Below are positions 9,239-17,779 of a stretch of DNA of 24,000 nucleotides, one piece after another; within the stretch, counting starts at the first letter, position 1; every line of letters starts with the position of its first letter. The notes under the pieces were generated by a model that was not told where the DNA came from, did no database searches, and was given only the letters and a program-made list of their open reading frames with translations. The position numbers were made by a program, and so were the translations under genes. This stretch comes from Pseudomonas sp. MRSN 12121 (GTDB lineage: Bacteria > Pseudomonadota > Gammaproteobacteria > Pseudomonadales > Pseudomonadaceae), in NCBI RefSeq assembly GCF_000931465.1, contig NZ_CP010892.1, forward strand, positions 2,479,388 to 2,503,387, read 5' to 3'.

Positions 9239-10846
9239 TCACTGCGCCTGCGCCACCAACTGCTTCCACTCCAGCCCGAAGCGCGCCAGGTATTTGCGCA
9301 GGCGGTCGGCGTCGTTGGCCTGGGCCTTGGTCTGGCGCGAGACGCCGAACAGTTTGCGTCCGGCATCGGACAGGCTGTCCGCCTGGCGACAGACCTCGAT
9401 CACCGCCTGCAACTGCAGGCGGTCGAACAGGTCGAGTTCGACGCTGTCGCCCAGCAGCGCGCCCAGCGAGTCCTGTTCCCGGCTCAAGCCCCAGGCATAA
9501 CGCAGGCGCTGGATTTCTTCCTCGACCTGGGCTTCGTCGATGCGCCCGCTGTCGGCCAGGGTGCCCATTCGGGTGATGGACGCCGACAGTTCGCGGAAGT
9601 TGCCCAGCCAGGCGGCCTCGCTGGAGCTGGCGAAGGCCAGGTAACGGCGCCGTGCCTCCAGGTTGAAGCGCACCAGTTGCCCTTGCTCCCGGGCGTGGCG
9701 CTCCAGCTCGAAGTCGATGTTCGGCTCGATGTCTTCGCGGCGTCCCGCCAGCCCCGGGAGGTTGAAGGTCCAGAGGTTGATCCGCGCATACAAGTCTTCG
9801 CGGAACAGCCCCTCGGCGACCCGGCCCCGCAGGTCGCGGTGGGTGCCGGCGATGATCAGGAAGTCGCTGGCGACCTCCTGGTCCGAACCCATGGGGAAGA
9901 AGCGCTTCTCCTCGATGGCCTTGAGCAGCATCGCCTGTTCGTCGAGGCCCAGTTCGCCGATCTCGTCGAGAAACAGCATGCCGCCGTCCGCCGCCCGCAG
10001 CAGGCCGTCGCGGGCGTTCTGGGCGCCGGTGAAGGCGCCCTTGATATGGCCGAACAGCGCCGACATGGCGCCGTCGCCGCGCAGGGTGGCGCAGTTGACT
10101 TCGACAAAGCGCCCCTGGACCTGATGCCGGCCGCGCTTGAGCTCATAGATACGCCGGGCCAGGAACGACTTGCCGGCGCCGGTGGGGCCGATCAGCAGCA
10201 TCGGCGCCCTGGAGCGCTCGGCCACCCGCTCGATCTGTTCGATGGAGCGGTTGAACGCGGCGTTGCGGGTGGCGATCCCGGACTTGAGGAAGGCCAGGCC
10301 CTCCAGGCGCTTGTGGGCGAAACGCGAGGCGATGCGGTCGTAGCGCGACAGGTCGAGATCGATCAGCGCGTGGGTGCCGGTGGCGTGTTGTTCCGGGTCG
10401 TGGCGCCGGGCCGGCGAGGTCTGGATCAGCCGGGCCGGCAGGTAGCGCGCCTCGGTCAGCAGGAACCAGCAGATCTGCGCCACATGGGTGCCGGTGGTGA
10501 TGTGCACCAGGTAATCCTCGCGCTCGGTGTCGAACGGGTAGGCGCTGGTGAAGTCGTGCAGGGCCGCGTACACCTCTTCGAAATCCCAGGGGTTCTTCAG
10601 GCCCATGGGGTGCAGGCGCACCTCGGTCTCGGGCGACACCTGGCGGATATCGTCGGCTACCCGCTGGGCCAGGCCGACGTCCCGGGCGTCCAGGCCGTGG
10701 ATCAGCTCCAGGCGCTGGATCAGCACATCCTGCTGCTGGCACAGGCCGACGCTGGGGCGCCAGTGGTTCCAGCGGTTGGCGCCCTTGCCCACGCGGTCGA
10801 GGGTGGAGCCGACAAAGCCTATGGCGACCGTAGGTTTGTTTGTCAT
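9239..10846 (-). CDS. rtcR: Sigma-54-dependent transcriptional activator RtcR (CARF-like N-domain + AAA+ + HTH)
   Basis: 535 aa. It has Walker A GPTGAGKS, the sigma-54 contact loop GAFTGA (KGAFTGAQ) and an RtcR-type N-terminus VAIGFVGSTLD. It is divergent from an operon that contains rtcB and rtcA. Confidence 0.9.
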   Translation of the reverse strand: MTNKPTVAIGFVGSTLDRVGKGANRWNHWRPSVGLCQQQDVLIQRLELIHGLDARDVGLAQRVADDIRQVSPETEVRLHPMGLKNPWDFEEVYAALHDFTSAYPFDTEREDYLVHITTGTHVAQICWFLLTEARYLPARLIQTSPARRHDPEQHATGTHALIDLDLSRYDRIASRFAHKRLEGLAFLKSGIATRNAAFNRSIEQIERVAERSRAPMLLIGPTGAGKSFLARRIYELKRGRHQVQGRFVEVNCATLRGDGAMSALFGHIKGAFTGAQNARDGLLRAADGGMLFLDEIGELGLDEQAMLLKAIEEKRFFPMGSDQEVASDFLIIAGTHRDLRGRVAEGLFREDLYARINLWTFNLPGLAGRREDIEPNIDFELERHAREQGQLVRFNLEARRRYLAFASSSEAAWLGNFRELSASITRMGTLADSGRIDEAQVEEEIQRLRYAWGLSREQDSLGALLGDSVELDLFDRLQLQAVIEVCRQADSLSDAGRKLFGVSRQTKAQANDADRLRKYLARFGLEWKQLVAQAQ

Positions 10847-10992: not shown

Positions 10993-11008
10993 TGGCACAG
11001 CGGCTGCA
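10993..11008 (+). promoter_or_regulatory. Sigma-54 (-24/-12) promoter of the rsr-rtcB operon
   Basis: TGGCAC-AGCGG-CTGCA matches the consensus TGGCAC-N5-TTGCW, with correct GG-to-GC spacing (GG 10994-10995, GC 11006-11007). It lies 43 nt upstream of the rsr ATG and opposite rtcR. Confidence 0.8.
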
Positions 11009-11050: not shown

Positions 11051-12601
11051 ATGGCCAACTTCCAGCTGTTCAACACCCGCCAGGCAGCAGCGCCAGCCAG
11101 CGACACCCTGAACGCTTCCCGGGCACCGGCTTACGCCTACAACGCCAAGCACCGCCTGGCCCAGCTGGTGGTGACCGGTTGCCTGAACTCGACCTTCTAC
11201 ACCTCGCCCGAAGGCCAGCTGGAAGCGGTGCTGCAACTGGTGAGCGAACTGGACAGCCGCTTCGTCGCCCAGGCCGCTCGGTACGCTCGGCAACAGGGCC
11301 ACATGAAAGACATGCCGGCCTTGCTGTTGGCCGCGCTGACCGCGCAGCGCTCGGCCCTGGTGCCGGAGCTGTTCGCCCAGGTGGTGGACAACGGCAAGAT
11401 GCTGCGCAACTACGTGCAGATCCTGCGCAGCGGCGTGACCGGGCGTAAATCCCTGGGTTCGCAGCCCAAGCGCCTGGTGCAGAACTGGTTGAACAGCGCC
11501 ACCGAGCGTCAGCTATTGCAGGCCGCGGTGGGTAACCAGCCGTCGCTGGCGGACCTGGTGAAGATGGTCCACCCCAAGCCGAGCGAGGCCTGGCGCGAAG
11601 CCTTCTTCGCCTGGTTGATCGGCAAGCCGGTGGATGCGCAGGCATTGCCCGAACTGACCCGCGCCTTGCTGGCCTTTCGCAGCGGTGCGACCACGCAAGT
11701 GCCGCCGGTGCCGTTCCAGCTGCTGGGTAACGAAACCCTGAGCGGCGAGCAATGGGCGGAGCAGGCGCGCAACATGGGCTGGCAGGGGCTGCGCATGAAC
11801 CTCAACACCCTGGCCCGCCACGGCGCGTTCCAGGTGCCGGGCTGCGCCGAGTATGTGGCGGCGCGGCTGGCGGATGCCGCCGAGGTGGCCAAGGCCCGGG
11901 TCTACCCGTACCAGTTGCTGGCGGCCTACCGCATGGCCGGCGACGAGGTGCCGCAGGTGGTGCGCGAGGCGTTGCAGGATGCCCTGGAACTGTCCCTGGC
12001 CAATGTGCCGGCGCTGCCGGGGAACGTGGTGGTGTGCCCGGATGTCTCGGGGTCGATGCACAGCCCGGTCACCGGCTATCGCCAGGGCGCGACCACGGCG
12101 GTACGTTGCATCGATGTGGCGGCGCTGGTGGCGGCAGCCGTGTTGCGCAAGCAGCCGGCGGCGCGCGTCATGCCCTTCGAGGTCGGGGTGGTGGATATCC
12201 GCCTCAACCCTCGGGACAGCGTGATGAGCAACGCGCAGAAACTGGCGGCCATCGGCGGTGGCGGGACCAACTGCTCGGCGCCCCTGGCACAGCTGGCCAA
12301 TGCCAAGTGCAAGGTGGATACCCTGATCCTGGTCTCGGACAACGAGTCGTGGATCGATGCGCGGCGCCACGGGGCGACCGAGACCCTGCGCCAGTGGGAG
12401 CGGATCAAGGCCATCAACCCGCAGGCGCGGCTGGTGTGCATCGATATGCAGCCCGGGGCGACCACCCAGGCGCCGGACCGCGCGGACATCCTCAACGTCG
12501 GCGGCTTCAGCGACGCGGTGTTCGACGTGATCCAGCAGTTCACCGCGGGCAACTACGGTGCGCAGCATTGGGTCAAGGCCATCGAGGCGCTGGCGCCCTG
12601 A
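11051..12601 (+). CDS. rsr: Ro60-related protein Rsr (TROVE domain + vWA domain)
   Basis: 516 aa. The N-terminal part is TROVE-like (NAKHRLAQLVVTGCLNSTFYTS). The C-terminal part is vWA with the MIDAS motif DVSGSM. Its position between rtcR and rtcB matches the Salmonella rsr-yrlBA-rtcBA layout. Confidence 0.85.
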   Translation: MANFQLFNTRQAAAPASDTLNASRAPAYAYNAKHRLAQLVVTGCLNSTFYTSPEGQLEAVLQLVSELDSRFVAQAARYARQQGHMKDMPALLLAALTAQRSALVPELFAQVVDNGKMLRNYVQILRSGVTGRKSLGSQPKRLVQNWLNSATERQLLQAAVGNQPSLADLVKMVHPKPSEAWREAFFAWLIGKPVDAQALPELTRALLAFRSGATTQVPPVPFQLLGNETLSGEQWAEQARNMGWQGLRMNLNTLARHGAFQVPGCAEYVAARLADAAEVAKARVYPYQLLAAYRMAGDEVPQVVREALQDALELSLANVPALPGNVVVCPDVSGSMHSPVTGYRQGATTAVRCIDVAALVAAAVLRKQPAARVMPFEVGVVDIRLNPRDSVMSNAQKLAAIGGGGTNCSAPLAQLANAKCKVDTLILVSDNESWIDARRHGATETLRQWERIKAINPQARLVCIDMQPGATTQAPDRADILNVGGFSDAVFDVIQQFTAGNYGAQHWVKAIEALAP

Positions 12602-12623
12602 GCGGCAAAAGATGAGATAAACC

Positions 12624-12645
12624 GTGCGCCGGCGAGCCGGCGCAC
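12624..12645 (+). other. GC-rich hairpin just after the rsr stop (no U-tract)
   Basis: GTGCGCCGGC-GA-GCCGGCGCAC is a 10-nt perfect inverted repeat. No T-run follows, so it is a possible processing or stability element rather than a terminator. Confidence 0.5.
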
Positions 12646-12665
12646 GTCGATGATGTTTGATCATT

Positions 12666-12723
12666 GGCCCCGAATGCCGCCGTGACTACCTCCAAAGACG
12701 TCTCGGCAGATCTTGTCTGGGCC
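12666..12723 (+). ncRNA. Y-RNA-like module 0 (minimal stem-loop, no tRNA-like domain)
   Basis: The closing helix is GGCCCCGA/TCTGGGCC (one C-U mismatch). It has the loop AUGCC, an 8-bp helix GCCGTGAC/GTCTCGGC (one U-U), UAC after the helix and CUUG-UCU on the 3' side. The layout matches modules 1-4. Confidence 0.4.
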
Positions 12724-12729
12724 TGTGAA

Positions 12730-12814
12730 GGCACGAATGCCAGTGGCTGTACCTCCTGGTTGGGCCGGTTCGAATCCGGCAATCAGTCACTACTGTTGTC
12801 GTGCCACCTTTTTT
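12730..12814 (+). ncRNA. Y-RNA-like module 1 (Ro-binding-type stem + T-arm hairpin + U6 tail)
   Basis: The closing helix is GGCACGA (12730-12736)/TCGTGCC (12799-12805). It has AUGCC and an 8-bp helix AGTGGCTG/CAGTCACT. The T-arm is GCCGG-TTCGAAT-CCGGC (12764-12780). The 3' side reads ACUGUUG-UCG and then ACC-TTTTTT (12809-12814). Confidence 0.65.
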
Positions 12815-12820
12815 GCTTTT

Positions 12821-12958
12821 GCGACGAATGCGGGTGGAACTACATCCAAGGTTCGAGGTGCGGGTTCGAGTCCCGCCGGTGCCCGGAAAAGGCACCGTGG
12901 TTCAATGGTCAGAGCACGAGTGCACTGTTCCACCAACCCTTGTCGTCGCCTCTTTTTT
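12821..12958 (+). ncRNA. YrlA-like Y RNA module 2 (permuted tRNA-like domain, U6 tail)
   Basis: The closing helix is GCGACGA (12821-12827)/TCGTCGC (12943-12949), with an 8-bp helix GGTGGAAC/GTTCCACC. The T-arm is GCGGG-TTCGAGT-CCCGC (12860-12876). A 7-bp capped acceptor CGGTGCC-CGGAAAA-GGCACCG spans 12877-12897. After UG comes the D-arm GTTC-AATGGTCA-GAGC (12900-12915). The tail is CTC-TTTTTT (12953-12958). Confidence 0.75.
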
Positions 12959-12974
12959 CCCGCCTTGGCGGGGT

Positions 12975-13082
12975 GGCAGCGAATGCCACGGGTACTACAT
13001 GGTGTCGCGGGTTCGAGCCCCGCCAGCCGCAAGGCTGTAGCTCAGTCGGTAGAGCGAATGTGCCCGTTCCCTTGTCGCTGCC
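12975..13082 (+). ncRNA. YrlA-like Y RNA module 3 (permuted tRNA-like domain)
   Basis: The closing helix is GGCAGCGA (12975-12982)/TCGCTGCC (13075-13082). It has AUGCC and an 8-bp helix ACGGGTAC/GTGCCCGT. The T-arm is GCGGG-TTCGAGC-CCCGC (13007-13023). The acceptor CAGCC-GCAA-GGCTG (13024-13037) has a GNRA cap. After UA comes the D-arm GCTC-AGTCGGTA-GAGC (13040-13055). Confidence 0.78.
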
Positions 13083-13109
13083 CGCAGGCCAGGCCTGCAC
13101 CGATTGACC

Positions 13110-13224
13110 CGGCGAATGCCGGTGGAACTACAGGACAGCGTGGTCGCGGGTTCGATTCCCGCCAACCGCAAGGGGCTAGCTCAGTGGTAGAGCGCGCTGC
13201 ATGTTCCGCCTTCACTGGTCGCCG
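13110..13224 (+). ncRNA. YrlA-like Y RNA module 4 (permuted tRNA-like domain)
   Basis: The closing helix is CGGCGA (13110-13115)/TCGCCG (13219-13224). It has AUGCC and an 8-bp helix GGTGGAAC/GTTCCGCC (one G-U). The T-arm is GCGGG-TTCGATT-CCCGC (13146-13162). The acceptor CAACC-GCAA-GGGGC is weak, with only 2 Watson-Crick pairs. After UA comes the D-arm GCTC-AGTGGTA-GAGC (13179-13193). Confidence 0.72.
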
Positions 13225-13290
13225 TTTACGCCGCGCTGTCGGTCACCGAACAAGGTCGAATTGTCGACCACAGAAGAAAGAGCCAAGAAC

Positions 13291-14517
13291 ATGGAACACA
13301 AGACCTGGCAACTGCTGGAAGTCGCCAACGGCAAGCCGATCAAGATGTGGACCCAGGGCGTGCCCGTGGAAAACGAAGCCCGCCAGCAGCTGATGAATAC
13401 CGCGAAGATGCCGTTCATCTTCAAGCACCTGGCGGTGATGCCCGACGTGCACCTGGGCAAGGGTTCGACCATCGGCAGCGTGATCCCGACCCTGGGCGCG
13501 ATCATTCCCGCGGCCGTCGGCGTGGATATCGGCTGCGGCATGATCGCCGCCCGCACCTCGCTGACGGCGGCGGACCTGCCGGACAACCTGCACGGCCTGC
13601 GCTGCGCCATTGAAAGTGCCGTGCCCCATGGGCGTACCGCGCCGCGCAGCGGCCGCGACAAGGGCGCCTGGGGCGAGGTGCCGCAGCAGGCCGACCGGGT
13701 CTGGGCGACCTTGCATCCGCGCTTCAAGGCGATCACCGACAAGTACCCGGCGCTGGCCAAGAGCAACAACCGCCAGCACCTGGGAACGCTCGGTGGCGGC
13801 AACCACTTCATCGAAGTCTGCCTGGATGAAGCCAACCGGGTCTGGTTCATGCTGCACAGCGGTTCCCGTGGCGTGGGTAACGCGATCGGCAACCTGTTCA
13901 TCCAGCTGGCCCAGGCGGATATGCGCCAGCACATCGCCGATCTGCCACACCGGGATCTGGCGTATTTCAAGGAAGGTAGCCGGCACTTCGACGATTACGT
14001 CGAAGCCGTGGGCTGGGCCCAGGACTTCGCCCGGCAGAACCGCGAGTTGATGATGCAGGCGGTGATCCAGGCCACCCGCCAGGTGATCCGCAAACCCTTC
14101 GAGGTGGCGCTGGAGGCGGTGAACTGCCACCACAACTACGTGCAGAAGGAGCGTCATTTCGGTGAGGAGGTGCTGGTGACCCGCAAGGGCGCGGTGTCGG
14201 CGCAAAAGGGCGAGCTGGGGATCATCCCGGGGTCGATGGGGGCCAAGAGCTTCATCGTCCGCGGCCTGGGCAACGAGGAGGCGTTCTGCTCCTGCAGCCA
14301 TGGGGCCGGGCGCACCATGAGCCGCACCAAGGCCAAGGACACCTTCACCCTGGCCGACCAGATCCGCGCCACCGCCCATGTGGAATGCCGCAAGGACACG
14401 GCGGTGATCGATGAAATCCCGATGGCCTACAAGGACATCGACCAAGTCATGCACGCCCAGCGCGAGCTGGTGGAAGTGCTGCACACCCTGCGTCAGGTAG
14501 TGTGCGTAAAGGGGTAG
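13291..14517 (+). CDS. rtcB: RNA-splicing ligase RtcB (3'-phosphate/5'-hydroxyl RNA ligase)
   Basis: The start is reset to ATG 13291 (MEHKTWQLLEV...), giving 408 aa as in E. coli RtcB. It is collinear with my memory of E. coli RtcB (KMWTQGVPVE, ARQQLMNTAKMPFIFKHLAVMPDVHLGKGSTIGSV, VGVDIGCGM, GGGNHFIE, HSGSRGVGN, NCHHNY, SCSHGAGR). Confidence 0.95.
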   Translation: MEHKTWQLLEVANGKPIKMWTQGVPVENEARQQLMNTAKMPFIFKHLAVMPDVHLGKGSTIGSVIPTLGAIIPAAVGVDIGCGMIAARTSLTAADLPDNLHGLRCAIESAVPHGRTAPRSGRDKGAWGEVPQQADRVWATLHPRFKAITDKYPALAKSNNRQHLGTLGGGNHFIEVCLDEANRVWFMLHSGSRGVGNAIGNLFIQLAQADMRQHIADLPHRDLAYFKEGSRHFDDYVEAVGWAQDFARQNRELMMQAVIQATRQVIRKPFEVALEAVNCHHNYVQKERHFGEEVLVTRKGAVSAQKGELGIIPGSMGAKSFIVRGLGNEEAFCSCSHGAGRTMSRTKAKDTFTLADQIRATAHVECRKDTAVIDEIPMAYKDIDQVMHAQRELVEVLHTLRQVVCVKG

Positions 14518-14521
14518 AGCG

Positions 14522-15865
14522 ATGTACGACAGGGAAGCACTGATAGCGGTCCCGCCCAGCTGGCATGACCAGTTGAGCGATTACGAAGCCCGCCGCGTGC
14601 GGGAGGTGATGGACTCACTGGACAGGCACAGTGCCTGGCTGGAACTGAGCCGCTTCGGCAACGGTTTTGTGCGGCAGGCGGCGGTACGCGGGTTGGCCGT
14701 GCAGCCTTCGGCAGAGGCCCTGGCCGCTTTGCTGGAGCGCCTCAACGATTGGGTGCCCCAGGTCCGCCAGGAGGCCGCTGCGGCCGTCGAGGGTTATCTG
14801 GTGCCGGAGCATGCGGGCCTGCTGTTGCAGAACCTGGTGCCGCTGCTGACCCTGGCCGGCAAGCAGCGTGCGGACCATGGCGCCACCCTGGCCAGGGCCC
14901 GCTCGGTGTTGCAACTGCCCCAGGTCCGGGCTGAGGTCGAACGTGCCTTTGGCGCGTCTTTGGGCAAGGCGGCGCGTTTTGTCTTCGAGCTGTTGCTGGA
15001 AGGCGCGCCAGACCGTGCCGGGTTGCTGGCGATGGCGTTGCGGCACCGGGATGTCAGTGTCCAGCAGATGGCGGTGGATGCCTGTGCCGGGTTGCCCGGC
15101 GGGCAGGCGGTGCCGTTGCTGGAGGAGGTGCTGCAGCGCTGCAGCGCCAGCGTTCGGGTCAAGGCTCTGCGGCTGTTGTTGCCGTTGCTGGCCGACCCCG
15201 GCGCGCCTCTGCGCCAGGGGTTGCTCGACCCTTCGGCAGCCATGCGTTGCCTGGCACTCTGGGCGGCCCCGCGGTATGGGCTGGACCCGCACGCAGTGCT
15301 GCAGGCCCGGTTGCTCGAGCCGGCGCCGCGGAACAAGCGTGGATGGCTGGGCCTGCTGGGGCTGGTCAAGGAACTGCAGGAGCTCCGGGCCGACGCCATG
15401 GTGCAACAGGCCCTGGCCTCGCCGGCGCCGAGCGTGCGTCTGCTGGCACTGCAGGTCCTCGACGAGCGGGGCCCGTCCGAGCAGCTCGCGGCCCTGGACG
15501 ACCCGGCGGACAAGGTCTTCAACGCTGCCCTGAGCCTGTTGCACAGGCAGCCGTGGGCGGTGTTCGAGCCGGCCCTGGAGCAGCGTCTGGACCAGCATTG
15601 GCATGCGCTGCCAGCAGCGCGTCGCCAGGCCATGCTGGGGCTCAAGCCCGGTTGGCGCCAGGTGCAATACCTGCTGCATCGCCTGGATCGGGCGGACAGT
15701 GACGCCGGCTACTGGCGCGAGACCCTGGCCCGTTGGTGCGATGCCCGCTATGTGATGTTCGACCCGGTGACTCCCAAGCCTGTGCGCGAGCAGCTGGCGC
15801 AGCGGTTACGGGTCATGGAAGAGGCCGGCGAACTGCCGCCGGGGTCGGTCAAGCGCCTGCTGTGA
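14522..15865 (+). CDS. HEAT-repeat (PBS-lyase-like) alpha-solenoid protein of unknown function
   Basis: 447 aa. Its start lies 4 nt after the rtcB stop, with an AAGGGG Shine-Dalgarno-like sequence upstream, and GC3 is high. It is Leu/Ala-rich with recurring motifs of the type xVRxxAxxxL (VRQAAVRGLA, VRQEAAAAVEGYL, VSVQQMAVDACAGL, VRVKALRLLLPLL, VRLLALQVL). No catalytic motif was recognised. Confidence 0.7.
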   Translation: MYDREALIAVPPSWHDQLSDYEARRVREVMDSLDRHSAWLELSRFGNGFVRQAAVRGLAVQPSAEALAALLERLNDWVPQVRQEAAAAVEGYLVPEHAGLLLQNLVPLLTLAGKQRADHGATLARARSVLQLPQVRAEVERAFGASLGKAARFVFELLLEGAPDRAGLLAMALRHRDVSVQQMAVDACAGLPGGQAVPLLEEVLQRCSASVRVKALRLLLPLLADPGAPLRQGLLDPSAAMRCLALWAAPRYGLDPHAVLQARLLEPAPRNKRGWLGLLGLVKELQELRADAMVQQALASPAPSVRLLALQVLDERGPSEQLAALDDPADKVFNAALSLLHRQPWAVFEPALEQRLDQHWHALPAARRQAMLGLKPGWRQVQYLLHRLDRADSDAGYWRETLARWCDARYVMFDPVTPKPVREQLAQRLRVMEEAGELPPGSVKRLL

Positions 15866-15938: not shown

Positions 15939-16727
15939 ATGCAACACCATGAACCCCACCCGCTGGACAGCGCGATGCGCGAGCGGGTACTGAGCGAGCT
16001 GGCGCGGATCGAGCGCGAGCGCAATGTGCGGGTGCTGTATGCCTGCGAATCCGGTAGCCGGGCCTGGGGCTTCGCCTCCACCGACAGCGATTACGACGTG
16101 CGTTTCGTCTATGTGGAAAAGCCCGAGTGGTTCATCCAGGTGGACCCCGGTCGGGATGTGATTGAGCGTCCCCTGGACGACGAGCTGGACGTCAGCGGCT
16201 GGGAGCTGCGCAAGACCCTCGGGCTGTTGCGCAAGTCCAACCCGACCCTGCTGGAGTGGCTGGATTCGCCCCTGGTGTATCGCAGTGAGCCGGCGGCCAC
16301 CGCGCGCCTGCGCGAGCTGGCCGAGGCGTTCTACAGCCCGCCGGCGGCGCGCAATCATTATCTGTCGATGGCCAGGAAGAATTTTCGCGGTTATCTGCAA
16401 GGCGACAGCGTGCGCTTCAAGAAGTACTTCTACGTGCTCCGGCCGTTGCTGGCGGTGCGCTGGATCGATCAGGGCCGCGGCCGGCCGCCGATGACCTTCG
16501 CCGAGCTGCTGGACACTGTCGACCATCGGCCGCTGCTGGACGAAGTGGATGAGTTGCTGGCCTTGAAGCGCAATGCCGACGAGTCCGCCTACGGGCCACG
16601 GCGAACGGCGCTGCATGCCTTTATCGCCGCCGAACTGGAACGCCCGGTGCCGAAGCTGCCGCGCACCCATCAAGACAATGCGTGGCTGGACGCCTACTTG
16701 CGAGAAACCGTCCGGCACTACGCCTGA
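15939..16727 (+). CDS. Pol-beta-superfamily nucleotidyltransferase (RlaP / PF10127-like, RtcB-associated)
   Basis: 262 aa, with AAGGA upstream of the ATG. The motif CESGSRAWGFASTDSDYDV matches the G[SG]-x(9-13)-DxD minimal nucleotidyltransferase signature. The RlaP family name is from my recollection of comparative-genomic literature and is not verified here. Confidence 0.75.
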   Translation: MQHHEPHPLDSAMRERVLSELARIERERNVRVLYACESGSRAWGFASTDSDYDVRFVYVEKPEWFIQVDPGRDVIERPLDDELDVSGWELRKTLGLLRKSNPTLLEWLDSPLVYRSEPAATARLRELAEAFYSPPAARNHYLSMARKNFRGYLQGDSVRFKKYFYVLRPLLAVRWIDQGRGRPPMTFAELLDTVDHRPLLDEVDELLALKRNADESAYGPRRTALHAFIAAELERPVPKLPRTHQDNAWLDAYLRETVRHYA

Positions 16728-16735
16728 GGAGCCTC

Positions 16736-17779
16736 ATGAAACAGGACGTCATCGAACTGGACGGCGCCATCGGCGGCGGCCAGGTACTGCGCAGTGCCCT
16801 GAGCTTGTCGATGCTCACCGGCAAAACCCTGCGGATTCACAACATACGGGCCCGGCGCGCCCGCCCGGGGCTGCTGCGCCAGCACCTGACCGCGGTACAG
16901 GCGGCCGCGCAGATCAGCGGGGCCAGGGTCCTGGGCGCCGAGCTGGGTTCCCGGGCGCTGACCTTCGAGCCGGGGCCGATTCGCGGCGGCGACTACCGCT
17001 TCGCCATCGGCACCGCCGGCAGCTGCACCCTGGTGTTGCAGACGCTGCTGCCGGCCTTGCTCCAGGCGCCGCAGCCGAGCCGCGTGAGCATCAGCGGCGG
17101 CACCCACAACCCCCTGGCGCCGCCGGTGGATTTCCTCCAGCAGGCTTGGCTGCCGCTACTGCGGCGCATGGGTGCACGGGTGGAATTGCAACTGCTGCGC
17201 CACGGTTTCGTTCCCGCTGGCGGCGGTGAGCTGGAGGCGTTCATCCAGCCGTCGACGCTGCACCCTTTGCACCTGGAACAGCGTGGCGCCGTGCTCGGAC
17301 GCCGGGCCTGGGCCTTGAGTGCCGGCTTGCCCGCGCATGTGGCGGAACGCGAGTTGCAGCGGGTTGGCCAGCGCCTGGATCTGCCGGCGGAACACCTGAG
17401 CCCGGTGCATCTGGAGGAACAATGTGGCCCGGGCAACGTGTTATTGCTGGCGTTCGCCTGCGAGCACCTGACCGAAGTGTTCAGCGGTTTCGGCCAGAGC
17501 AGCCAGCGCGCGGAAAGCGTGGCCGACGGTGCCATCGACCAGGCCCGGGACTGGCTGGACTCCGGCGTCGCAGTAGCGGAGCACCTGGCCGATCAACTGC
17601 TGCTACCCATGGCCCTGGCCGGTGGTGGAAGCTTCACCACCCCACGCATGAGCGAGCACCTGCAAAGCAATATCCGGGTGATCGAGGCGTTTTTGCCGGT
17701 GCGTATCGACTGTTCGGCGCACTCCCGGGAAGTCCTGCGGGTCGAGGTTCTGCCAATCGCCCCCTGGCGTCTAAGCTAG
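16736..17779 (+). CDS. rtcA: RNA 3'-terminal phosphate cyclase RtcA
   Basis: The start is reset to ATG 16736, with GAGGA 5 nt upstream and 8 nt after the previous stop. The 347-aa protein is collinear with E. coli RtcA as recalled (GGGQVLRSALSLSMLTG, RPGLLRQHLTAV, GGDYRFAIGTAGSCTLVLQTLLPAL, LLRHGFVPAGGG, EHLADQLLLPMALAG). Confidence 0.93.
   Translation: MKQDVIELDGAIGGGQVLRSALSLSMLTGKTLRIHNIRARRARPGLLRQHLTAVQAAAQISGARVLGAELGSRALTFEPGPIRGGDYRFAIGTAGSCTLVLQTLLPALLQAPQPSRVSISGGTHNPLAPPVDFLQQAWLPLLRRMGARVELQLLRHGFVPAGGGELEAFIQPSTLHPLHLEQRGAVLGRRAWALSAGLPAHVAERELQRVGQRLDLPAEHLSPVHLEEQCGPGNVLLLAFACEHLTEVFSGFGQSSQRAESVADGAIDQARDWLDSGVAVAEHLADQLLLPMALAGGGSFTTPRMSEHLQSNIRVIEAFLPVRIDCSAHSREVLRVEVLPIAPWRLS

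What the first reader, a model, noticed from the sequence alone, without database searches (positions are those of the whole stretch)
12821..13224. Three complete, circularly permuted tRNA-like domains (T-arm, loop-capped acceptor, D-arm)
In modules 2-4 the insert reproduces tRNA geometry in permuted order and with correct junction lengths. The T-stem/loop is GCGGG-TTCGA(G/T)N-CCCGC (T-loop consensus TTCRANY). It is followed immediately by an acceptor-like helix closed by a loop rather than by free ends. That helix is 7 bp in M2 (CGGTGCC-CGGAAAA-GGCACCG), 5 bp with a GCAA tetraloop in M3 and degenerate in M4. Two nucleotides follow (UG/UA, equivalent to positions 8-9). Then comes a canonical D-arm (GCTC-AGTCGGTA-GAGC, GCTC-AGTGGTA-GAGC, GTTC-AATGGTCA-GAGC). 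The anticodon arm is replaced by the 8-bp helix that leads into the Ro-type stem. This is the tRNA mimicry described for YrlA, but here it is triplicated, with three different acceptor caps and different variable regions. RtcR is reported to respond to damaged tRNA fragments. An operon that senses tRNA damage and co-expresses several tRNA mimics could use them as decoys, scaffolds or substrates. That last idea is inference only.
Basis: partly seen in the sequence, partly recalled or inferred. Interest (0 to 1): 0.8.

Follow-up and report, generated by a model that had tools for sequence, protein, structure and literature searches.

The report
Three tandem YrlA tRNA-mimic Y RNAs
The region holds three neighbouring genes for YrlA-type Y RNAs, a known class of small bacterial RNAs that bind the Ro protein and mimic tRNA; the triple arrangement is real and conserved in many Pseudomonas relatives, so this is a well-documented example of a known family rather than a new kind of element.

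Summary
Between rsr (Ro60 orthologue) and rtcB lies a 690-nt array of five same-strand Y-RNA modules. All three match Rfam YrlA (65.3, 71.9 and 72.0 bits; gathering score 69). Comparison with 80 related rsr loci shows 99% pairing, with double changes in 24 of 27 pairs. The tertiary Levitt pair 15:48 also covaries (G:C 70, A:U 38, G:U 0).

The triplication is not special to this genome. 22 of the 80 loci, plus an Aeromonas locus, have the same three modules in the same order. The paralogues are 55-66% identical to each other but 92-99% identical to their positional orthologues, and each keeps its own signature. Module 1 always has a tRNA-length 7-8 bp acceptor stem. Arrays of one to seven modules are the norm in this clade.

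The decoy idea has already been published (Hughes 2020). Verdict: new members of the known YrlA family. The conserved division into three paralogue types is a modest, testable extension.

The parts
9239..10846 (-). rtcR, a sigma-54 enhancer-binding activator with an RtcR/CARF-like N-terminal domain
   Evidence: Pfam RtcR 1.9e-83 and Sigma54_activat 4.1e-49
10993..11008 (+). Sigma-54-type promoter-like site TGGCAC-N5-CTGCA, 43 nt upstream of the rsr start codon
   Evidence: Pattern match and sequence. It is a consensus match only. The pattern is not enriched in the window (8 matches against 9.1 expected), so the position is what makes it plausible.
11051..12601 (+). rsr, the Ro60 orthologue (TROVE ring plus vWA domain)
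   Evidence: Pfam vWA_Ro60 8.9e-22 and TROVE 9e-06. NCBIfam RNA-bind_Rsr 3.2e-26, but 91.9 bits is far below its 900-bit equivalog cut-off.
12623..12646 (+). 10-bp GC-rich hairpin just after the rsr stop codon, conserved in relatives
   Evidence: Function unknown; it has no T-run on the + strand.
12667..12725 (+). Module m1: a 59-nt minimal Y-RNA-like module with a Ro-type stem and a short hairpin, and no tRNA-like parts
   Evidence: Own covariance model, 28.4 bits, E 1.1e-05. 58-60-nt modules score at the first array position in L001, L003, L006, L009 and in the single-YrlA Pseudomonas loci (L010-L028 and others). Fold.
12730..12808 (+). Module m2: a 79-nt YrlB-like module with a Ro-type stem, an 8-bp helix and a T-arm only (GCCGG-TTCGAAT-CCGGC at 12764-12780)
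   Evidence: Own model, 27.8 bits. Weak Rfam YrlB match, 17.4 bits, E 1.7. MFE z-score -3.4. Covariation in both helices among 17 orthologues.
12821..12952 (+). YrlA paralogue A1 (132 nt): T-arm 12860-12876, 7-bp capped acceptor 12877-12897, UG, D-arm 12900-12915 (GUUC/GAGC with a U.G wobble), A15:U48
   Evidence: Rfam YrlA 65.3 bits, E 1.4e-14 (3.7 bits below the gathering score). Own model 94.2 bits. Among 29 positional orthologues the acceptor helix is 98.5% paired, with double changes in 5 of 7 pairs.
12976..13084 (+). YrlA paralogue A2 (109 nt): T-arm 13007-13023, 5-bp acceptor with a GCAA tetraloop 13024-13037, UA, D-arm 13040-13055, G15:C48, variable loop GUGUC
   Evidence: Rfam YrlA 71.9 bits, above the gathering score. 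The single-sequence MFE is exactly the permuted cloverleaf. Own model 113.3 bits.
13109..13228 (+). YrlA paralogue A3 (120 nt): 5-bp anticodon-stem equivalent CAGCG/CGCUG, variable loop UGGUC, T-arm 13146-13162, decayed acceptor cap 13163-13176, UA, D-arm 13179-13193, G15:C48
   Evidence: Rfam YrlA 72.0 bits, above the gathering score. Own model 105.2 bits. The cap is intact in L008 and L003 and deleted in L009.
12809..12820 (+). T-rich spacer TTTTTTGCTTTT between m2 and A1
   Evidence: T-rich in the close Pseudomonas loci (L001-L009), and a terminal T-run directly before A1 is kept in most of the other 3-module loci. A role as an RNase E or processing site is inference.
12953..12975 (+). Spacer between A1 and A2: a T-run followed by the small hairpin CCCGC-CTTG-GCGGG
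   Evidence: The hairpin stem is conserved while its loop varies in relatives.
13084..13108 (+). Spacer between A2 and A3 with the hairpin GCAGG-CCAGG-CCTGC
   Evidence: Relatives have GGAGG...CCTCC, a compensatory change.
13291..14517 (+). rtcB RNA ligase, the first gene downstream of the array
   Evidence: Pfam RtcB 1.5e-129
14522..15865 (+). 447-aa HEAT-repeat protein (named 'PBS lyase' in databases), function unknown
   Evidence: Pfam HEAT_2 only. It lies next to rtcB even in a P. aeruginosa locus that has no rsr and no Y RNAs.
15939..16727 (+). rlaP, an RNA-repair-pathway Pol-beta-family nucleotidyltransferase
   Evidence: Pfam RlaP 1.8e-96
16682..17779 (+). rtcA RNA 3'-phosphate cyclase (the true start is probably downstream of the ORF's first GTG)
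   Evidence: Pfam RTC 2e-80 and RTC_insert 5.3e-13

Best explanation
The three elements are three old, paralogous genes for YrlA-type Y RNAs. They form the last three units of a five-unit Y-RNA array: m1, m2, A1, A2, A3.

The array lies inside an operon that appears to be RtcR/sigma-54-controlled: rsr, Y-RNA array, rtcB, HEAT-repeat gene, rlaP, rtcA.

Proposed mechanism:
1. tRNA damage activates RtcR (established in Salmonella, inferred here).
2. The operon is transcribed through the array (inferred).
3. The transcript is cut in the T-rich, hairpin-flanked spacers into RNAs of about 60-130 nt (inferred).
4. Each RNA closes on itself through the conserved CGAAUGC...UUGUCG bulged helix, which is the docking site for the Rsr (Ro60) ring. 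The helix is shown here; the binding is inferred from the family.
5. In A1-A3 the other end folds into an L-shaped tRNA mimic with no anticodon loop and no free CCA end. Secondary structure and one tertiary pair are supported by covariation.
6. That mimic presents a tRNA elbow to a tRNA-binding partner and so tethers Rsr to an effector. This is the family model. PNPase is the partner in Deinococcus and Salmonella complexes; the elbow-specific partner is unknown.

The three paralogues have kept distinct signatures across genera. A1 has a tRNA-length 7-8 bp acceptor stem, A15:U48 and a GUUC D-stem. A2 has a 4-5 bp GCAA-capped stem and G15:C48. A3 has a variable or lost cap. They are therefore probably not redundant.
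For: - **Family match.** Rfam YrlA matches at 65.3, 71.9 and 72.0 bits, E 1e-14 to 1e-16.
- **Operon context.** RtcR, Ro60/TROVE, RtcB, RlaP and RTC are all found by Pfam. A sigma-54-like site lies upstream of rsr. No sigma-70-like sites lie in the array.
- **Strand and position.** All 288 model hits in 81 sources are on the rsr strand, downstream of rsr. None occur in a P. aeruginosa rtcR-rtcB locus that lacks rsr.
- **Secondary-structure covariation.** 99.0% of cells are paired, 24 of 27 pairs show double changes, 0 of 500 shuffles reach this, and slid controls give 38-55% pairing. RNAalifold on an independent MAFFT alignment gives the same structure.
- **Tertiary signal.** The 15:48 pair is G:C 70, A:U 38, A:C 6, G:U 0 among 124 distinct modules, and it switches between paralogues and between orthologues. 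U8, A14, A21, G18-G19, G46 and the UUCRA T-loop are present in all three modules, matching the contacts seen in the YrlA crystal structure.
- **Age and distinctness of the paralogues.** They are 55-66% identical within the window but 92-99% identical to positional orthologues. A1-type modules cluster together across all species. Acceptor length by position is 7-8 bp (21 of 21), 4-5 bp (21 of 21) and 0-6 bp. The same layout occurs in Aeromonas.
Against: - No expression, processing, Rsr-binding or modification data exist for this organism. Everything beyond the sequence and structure level is carried over from Salmonella, Mycobacterium and Deinococcus.
- A1 falls 3.7 bits short of Rfam's gathering score.
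- The single-sequence MFE folds of A1 and A3 do not give the cloverleaf-like junction.
- The acceptor cap of A3 is decayed here and deleted in L009, so that paralogue may be drifting.
- The covariation alignment A2 was fitted to the model, and the Fisher test on 15:48 is not corrected for phylogeny.
- My 'un-permuting' test with ARAGORN did not discriminate: 8 of 15 controls with a shuffled D-arm were also called tRNA.
Confidence: 0.8

Rival explanations
1. The tRNA-like modules act mainly as decoys. They would be co-induced with the repair enzymes to compete with real tRNAs for tRNA-targeting nucleases or toxins, and several copies would simply raise the decoy concentration or widen its range. 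This does not exclude the tether model.
For: Hughes 2020 proposed competitive inhibition of the anticodon nuclease by YrlA and showed that YrlA itself is not cleaved. The modules keep the complete elbow and tertiary core. They lie in an operon that appears to be RtcR-controlled.
Against: The modules have no anticodon loop, which is the usual nuclease target. The nearly invariant D- and T-stem sequences point to a sequence-specific partner rather than generic mimicry. Every module keeps an Rsr-binding helix under covariation, which a pure decoy would not need.
Confidence: 0.15
2. The array works mainly in cis. It would be a set of structured 'punctuation' or stability elements that directs RNase P or RNase E processing of the polycistronic mRNA and sets the rsr:rtcB expression ratio. 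The released RNAs would be by-products.
For: The array sits between two operon genes. The spacers hold conserved T-runs and small hairpins. A1 keeps a 7-8 bp acceptor stem, the length that Chen 2014 linked to RNase P cleavage of M. smegmatis YrlA.
Against: The conserved Ro-binding helix, with its covariation, is present in every module. Tertiary-fold nucleotides are conserved. In M. smegmatis and D. radiodurans the Y RNAs are encoded upstream of rsr and are bound by Rsr, not placed between operon genes.
Confidence: 0.1
3. The three copies are redundant tandem duplicates kept only for dosage, or drifting neutrally, with no differences in function.
For: They share the same core T- and D-arms. 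A3's cap is decaying. Some relatives have two modules or one.
Against: The paralogues are only 55-66% identical to each other but 92-99% identical to positional orthologues. Position-specific signatures hold in 21 of 21 distinct sequences at positions 1 and 2, across Pseudomonas, Ectopseudomonas, Phytopseudomonas and Metapseudomonas. The same three-module layout occurs in Aeromonas.
Confidence: 0.1
4. They are real (permuted or split) tRNA genes, or decayed tRNA pseudogenes.
For: The D-arm and variable loop of A2 are identical to those of common bacterial tRNAs (own knowledge of E. coli tRNA-Phe). In L030 a stretch running from the 3' part of one module across the spacer into the next scores as tRNA at 32.6 bits.
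Against: ARAGORN finds no tRNA in the window or in the array. There is no anticodon loop and no free acceptor end. Each unit is enclosed by a Ro-type helix. Conservation with covariation argues against pseudogenes.
Confidence: 0.01

Closest known systems
Salmonella Typhimurium YrlA (Rfam RF02553; crystal structure PDB 6CU1) in the rsr-yrlBA-rtcBA operon
   Same: Same operon logic (rtcR | rsr, Y RNAs, rtcB ... rtcA). Same Ro-binding 5' strand (CGAAUG). Same order of parts: anticodon-like helix, variable region, T-arm, closed acceptor stem-loop, UA, D-arm. Same tertiary nucleotides: UUCGA T-loop, GG in the D-loop, Levitt pair, U8-A14-A21.
   Different: Salmonella has one YrlA plus one YrlB. Here there are three YrlA paralogues plus two smaller modules. 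Acceptor stems are 7 bp, 5 bp and about 2 bp, against 6 bp in Salmonella. The operon carries extra genes for a HEAT-repeat protein and RlaP.
Mycobacterium smegmatis YrlA (7-bp acceptor stem, cleaved by RNase P, then given a CCA tail)
   Same: Module A1 and all 21 distinct positional orthologues have a 7-8 bp acceptor stem stacked directly on the 5-bp T-stem. This gives the 12-bp tRNA-like minihelix that Chen 2014 linked to RNase P cleavage.
   Different: Cleavage and CCA addition were not tested here. The mycobacterial RNA is encoded upstream of rsr and is not under RtcR control.
YrlB (Salmonella, M. smegmatis) and Deinococcus Yrn2: second, simpler Y RNAs encoded beside the tRNA-like one
   Same: m1 and m2 have a Ro-type stem and lack a full tRNA-like domain. 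Like M. smegmatis YrlB, m2 has a T-arm.
   Different: There is only a weak match to Rfam YrlB (17.4 bits against a gathering score of 97). Two such modules are present here. In Ectopseudomonas, m2 orthologues also carry an acceptor-like GCAA-capped hairpin.
Other tRNA mimics: the tmRNA tRNA-like domain, viral 3' tRNA-like structures, mascRNA
   Same: They share the T-arm and elbow. Short local matches to the tmRNA T-arm (18.9 bits) and a weak mascRNA match appear.
   Different: Those RNAs have free CCA ends or are RNase P/Z products and act in translation or localisation. The modules here are closed, lack an aminoacylatable end and are joined to a Ro-binding helix.

Membership tests
YrlA Y RNA (Rfam RF02553) | Score at or above the Rfam gathering threshold (69 bits) | tested here: met
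   A2 scores 71.9 and A3 72.0 bits. A1 scores 65.3 bits, E 1.4e-14, just below the threshold. So the feature is met for two modules and narrowly missed by the third.
YrlA Y RNA (Rfam RF02553) | Encoded within 4 kb of an rsr/Ro60 gene and on the same strand (criterion of Chen 2014) | tested here: met
   The modules lie 220-630 nt downstream of the rsr stop codon, on the + strand. The criterion is quoted.
YrlA Y RNA (Rfam RF02553) | Terminal helix carrying the Ro-binding 5'-strand motif GNCGAAN0-1G | tested here: met
   A1 has GACGAAUG and A3 has GGCGAAUG. A2 has AGCGAAUG, where the first G-C pair is replaced by A-U, a compensated change seen in 34 of 141 sequences. The helix is 100% paired with covariation.
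YrlA Y RNA (Rfam RF02553) | Nearly invariant T and D stem-loops in the order T-arm, acceptor stem-loop, D-arm | tested here: met
   T-stem GCGGG/CCCGC. D-stem GCUC/GAGC, or the compensated GUUC/GAAC. A1 in the window is the U.G intermediate.
YrlA Y RNA (Rfam RF02553) | Closed (loop-capped) acceptor stem | tested here: met
   A1 has 7 bp and A2 has 5 bp plus GCAA. In A3 only 2 bp remain, so the feature is degenerate there.
YrlA Y RNA (Rfam RF02553) | Nucleotides for the tRNA-type tertiary contacts seen in PDB 6CU1 (T-loop/D-loop GG elbow, Levitt pair, U8-A14-A21 and neighbouring triples) | tested here: met
   All are present in A1-A3. The Levitt pair covaries across 124 modules. This is sequence-level evidence only; no 3D model was built.
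YrlA Y RNA (Rfam RF02553) | Bound by Rsr; modified by TruB and DusA; accumulates as a discrete small RNA | not testable with these tools
   This needs RIP, Northern blots or modification mapping in this Pseudomonas.
Canonical or permuted tRNA gene | Anticodon stem-loop and a free acceptor end; detectable by a tRNA finder | tested here: not met
   ARAGORN finds none in the window or the array. The anticodon position is occupied by a helix that leads to the Ro stem.
YrlB (Rfam RF02565), considered for modules m1 and m2 | Score at or above the gathering threshold (97 bits) | tested here: not met
   m2 scores 17.4 bits, E 1.7, and m1 has no match. They work like YrlB-type second Y RNAs but are not members of the Salmonella-based family model.

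The most novel reading that the evidence does not exclude
The three YrlA paralogues may be a conserved division of labour rather than spare copies. A1 keeps an exact tRNA-length acceptor/T minihelix (7-8 bp plus 5 bp). Like M. smegmatis YrlA, it may be opened by RNase P and given a CCA tail, producing a 'split' Y RNA with a tRNA-like 3' end. A2 and A3 would stay closed. Each type would then tether Rsr to a different tRNA-binding partner during the RtcR-controlled response to tRNA damage. This would be a multi-adaptor Ro RNP system encoded as one processed array.
Probability: 0.25. Interest if true: 0.5.

Novelty: new member of a known kind. Interest (0 to 1): 0.3.

Why it matters
The partner that recognises the YrlA tRNA-like elbow, and the role of Rsr and Y RNAs in the RtcB repair operon, are still unknown. 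A clade in which three YrlA paralogues have kept different acceptor-stem lengths, Levitt pairs and D-stems over long evolutionary times offers a natural experiment. Paralogue-specific pull-downs, RNase P assays and deletions in a tractable Pseudomonas could show what the tRNA-like module is for. The finding does not change what kind of element this is.

Tried and rejected
1. **Un-permuting test.** I cut each module at the acceptor loop, grafted on a generic anticodon arm and ran ARAGORN. All constructs were called tRNA, but so were 8 of 15 controls with a shuffled D-arm, so the test does not discriminate and I give it no weight.
2. **A1 anticodon-stem equivalent.** A hand-drawn 5-bp stem for A1-type modules (GUUCG/CGAGU) was only 47% paired on the MAFFT alignment of 29 orthologues. 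A 1-nt register shift in the Ectopseudomonas sequences is the likely cause. Only a 3-bp UCG/CGA closing stem is safe, so this is inconclusive.
3. **HEAT-repeat protein as the missing YrlA effector.** It co-occurs with three-module arrays (15/22, 4/17, 1/32 and 0/8 loci with 3, 2, 1 and 0 full modules; the one 4-module locus lacks it). However, it also sits next to rtcB in a P. aeruginosa locus with no rsr and no Y RNA. The link is therefore to RtcB and to phylogeny, not to YrlA. It has no PDB sequence relative and only weak PADLOC HEAT-repeat matches (E 5e-06 and 0.002).
4. **Literature not reachable.** The supplementary tables of Chen 2014, which would list copy numbers per genome, and two Wolin-lab reviews are not held. 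I could not check whether the Pseudomonas triple is already tabulated.
5. **Terminators.** The scan found no + strand terminator inside the array. The T-runs follow long-range Ro stems or precede hairpins, so they are not classical terminators.
Full report
**1. What is there**

The finding lies in the 690-nt gap between two + strand genes. Upstream is rsr (11051-12601; Pfam vWA_Ro60 and TROVE). Downstream is rtcB (13291-14517; Pfam RtcB 1.5e-129). After rtcB come a 447-aa HEAT-repeat ORF, rlaP and rtcA. rtcR is divergently encoded upstream (9239-10846). A sigma-54-type site, TGGCACAGCGGCTGCA, lies at 10993-11008, 43 nt before the rsr start codon. No sigma-70-like site was found between 10800 and 13400. 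The closest Rsr proteins in a species-level genome collection are from Pseudomonas (96% identity). The HEAT-repeat protein is 97% identical to one from P. chlororaphis.

**2. Checking the observation**

- cmscan against Rfam finds YrlA (RF02553) three times on the + strand: 12821-12952 (65.3 bits), 12976-13084 (71.9) and 13109-13228 (72.0). The gathering score is 69 and the E-values are 1.4e-14 to 1.7e-16.
- ARAGORN finds no tRNA.
- The T-stem runs straight into the acceptor-like hairpin. Two nucleotides follow (UG, UA, UA), then a 4-bp D-stem with a 7-8-nt loop containing GG.
- The acceptor hairpin is 7 bp in A1, 5 bp plus GCAA in A2, and decayed in A3 (two C-G pairs, then A.G mismatches).
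- A3 has a clear 5-bp anticodon-stem equivalent (CAGCG/CGCUG) with a 5-nt variable loop and one nucleotide at position 26. A1 has a 3-5-bp equivalent. A2 has none.

So 'complete' and 'correct junction lengths' are somewhat generous, but the description is accurate.

**3. The array is larger than the finding**

I built a covariance model from 17 YrlA sequences. It detects two further modules upstream. Module m1 (12667-12725, 59 nt) has a Ro-type stem and a short hairpin. Module m2 (12730-12808, 79 nt) has a Ro-type stem, an 8-bp helix and a T-arm only. CGAATGC occurs five times on the + strand of the 24-kb window, once per module and nowhere else on that strand.

**4. Comparison with relatives**

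I fetched 80 rsr loci from one genome per species: Pseudomonas in the broad sense, Chitinimonas, Rhodocyclaceae, Undibacterium, Massilia and others.
- The model gives 288 hits in the 81 sources. All are on the rsr strand and downstream of rsr.
- Modules per source (80 loci plus the window): 1 (3), 2 (7), 3 (31), 4 (25), 5 (13), 6 (1), 7 (1).
- On the 150 best hits, 99.0% of cells are paired and 24 of 27 pairs have changes on both sides. No shuffle out of 500 reaches this, and sliding the partners drops pairing to 38-55%. That alignment is fitted to the model, but RNAalifold on a plain MAFFT alignment gives the same five helices, with 12 of 27 pairs compensated.
- Among 124 distinct parsed modules, the tertiary Levitt pair (position 15 in the D-loop with position 48 before the T-stem) is G:C in 70, A:U in 38, A:C in 6 and never G:U (Fisher 2.7e-24, not corrected for phylogeny). 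It differs between paralogues in one locus (A1 is A:U; A2 and A3 are G:C here). It also switches among A3 orthologues.
- The D-stem is GCUC/GAGC in 101, GUUC/GAAC in 19, and the U.G intermediate GUUC/GAGC in 2 (the window and L001).
- U8, A14, A21, G18-G19, G46 and the UUCRA T-loop are present in all three window modules. These are the contacts seen in the Salmonella YrlA crystal structure.

**5. The triplication is old and conserved**

- By the 60-bit cut-off, 22 of the 80 loci have three full modules. In the clustering, 22 loci plus the window show them in the same order, with lengths of about 132, 109 and 120 nt.
- These loci span Pseudomonas, Ectopseudomonas, Phytopseudomonas and Metapseudomonas. 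An Aeromonas dhakensis locus with the same operon has the same layout.
- The window's paralogues are 55-66% identical to one another but 92-99% identical to their positional orthologues. A1-type modules form one cluster across all these loci.
- Position-specific signatures hold across distinct sequences. Position 1 has a 7-8 bp acceptor stem and A15:U48 in 21 of 21. Position 2 has 4-5 bp in 21 of 21 and G15:C48 in 20 of 21. Position 3 has 0-6 bp and is mixed.
- On 29 A1-type orthologues the 7-bp acceptor helix is 98.5% paired, with double changes in 5 of 7 pairs.
- The spacers are conserved too. T-runs flank A1, and small hairpins with compensatory changes lie between A1 and A2 and between A2 and A3.
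- A P. aeruginosa rtcR-Band7-rtcB-HEAT locus without rsr has no module, which is a useful negative control.

**6. What it is and how it probably works**

These are YrlA-type Y RNAs. The family model comes from Chen 2014, Wang 2018 and Hughes 2020. The terminal helix binds the Rsr ring. The tRNA-like module is modified by TruB and DusA in Salmonella, adopts a tRNA L-shape, and is thought to recruit an unknown elbow-binding partner. The Salmonella operon is induced by RtcR in response to tRNA fragments.

For this window I infer the following steps.
1. The whole operon is transcribed from the sigma-54-like promoter.
2. The transcript is processed in the T-rich spacers.
3. Up to five Rsr-Y RNA particles form.

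Only the sequence, the secondary structure and one tertiary pair are shown here. Expression, processing and binding are inferred. The conserved differences between the paralogues argue that they are not redundant. [quoted passage not shown]

**7. Rivals**

- A decoy role is possible and not exclusive of the tether model, but it was proposed before. It does not explain why every module keeps a Ro-binding helix.
- A purely cis-acting processing role does not explain the conserved Ro helix and tertiary core.
- Simple redundancy is contradicted by the position-specific conservation.
- True tRNA genes or pseudogenes are excluded.

**8. Novelty**

The family, its tRNA mimicry, the closed acceptor stem, the Levitt pair and the occurrence of more than one Y RNA per rsr locus are all published. 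Chen 2014 reported 355 YrlA candidates in 276 genomes. I could not read that paper's supplementary tables or two reviews, so I cannot say whether the Pseudomonas triple is already listed.

What this analysis adds:
- the five-module layout;
- its conservation across genera;
- the paralogue-specific signatures.

I rate it as new members of a known kind, of moderate-to-low interest, with one testable extension: specialised paralogues, with A1 as an RNase P substrate.

Noticed in passing
window 14522-15865 (+): A 447-aa HEAT-repeat protein (named 'PBS lyase' in databases) lies between rtcB and rlaP. It has no PDB sequence relative and only a HEAT_2 Pfam match. It is found next to rtcB in Pseudomonas and Aeromonas, and also in a P. 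aeruginosa rtcR-Band7-rtcB locus that has no rsr and no Y RNAs. It therefore looks like an uncharacterised RtcB-linked accessory protein.
   Followed up: partly
window 12667-12725 and 12730-12808 (+): Two smaller Y-RNA-like modules lie upstream of the three YrlA copies. Ectopseudomonas orthologues of m2 keep a T-arm plus a GCAA-capped acceptor-like hairpin but no D-arm, which is a 'minihelix' mimic. The window's clade has lost that hairpin. The Ro motif of m1 has a C.U mismatch here where most relatives have U-A.
   Followed up: partly
window 12688-12695 and 12750-12757 (+): Both small modules carry ACCUCC (anti-Shine-Dalgarno-like) in their loops in this genome, where relatives have ACAUCC. 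The same A-to-C change has occurred in two modules. It may be coincidence.
   Followed up: no
window 12809-12820, 12953-12975, 13084-13108 (+): The spacers between modules are conserved. T-runs flank A1. Small GC hairpins lie between A1 and A2 and between A2 and A3, with compensatory changes (GCAGG/CCTGC against GGAGG/CCTCC). In Ectopseudomonas the second hairpin is followed by a T-run, so it looks like a weak terminator. These may be processing or partial-termination signals.
   Followed up: partly
window 12623-12646 (+): A perfect 10-bp GC-rich hairpin lies 22 nt after the rsr stop codon and is conserved in close relatives. On the + strand it has no T-run, so it is not a classical terminator.
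   Followed up: no
L009:6063-6172; L003/L005/L006/L009 downstream of A3: In L009 the acceptor cap of the third YrlA is deleted outright (CCCGC-TCAC-TAGCTC). Several close relatives have a conserved ~30-nt insert (GTAGGAGCTGGCTTGCCAGCGAAG), which I take from memory to be REP-like, between the array and rtcB; the window lacks it.
   Followed up: no
L023 compared with P0001: A P. chlororaphis genome (L023) has the one-YrlA version of the locus (Rsr 81% identical, no HEAT gene). Another P. chlororaphis protein is 97% identical to the window's HEAT protein. Aeromonas dhakensis carries the complete three-YrlA operon. Together these suggest that the whole operon moves horizontally.
   Followed up: partly
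L049:5734-6703; L055:5605-6314: A Rhodocyclaceae MAG has seven consecutive Y-RNA-like modules after rsr, four of them full (>=60 bits) YrlA-type. Chitinimonas lacunae has five 65-68-nt minimal modules, spaced about 170 nt apart (the last two about 135 nt), and no tRNA-like one.
   Followed up: no
L030:5846-5963: Rfam's tRNA model scores above its threshold (32.6 bits) across the junction of two adjacent YrlA modules, running from the 3' part of one module across the spacer into the next. This is an annotation trap for tandem YrlA arrays.
   Followed up: no
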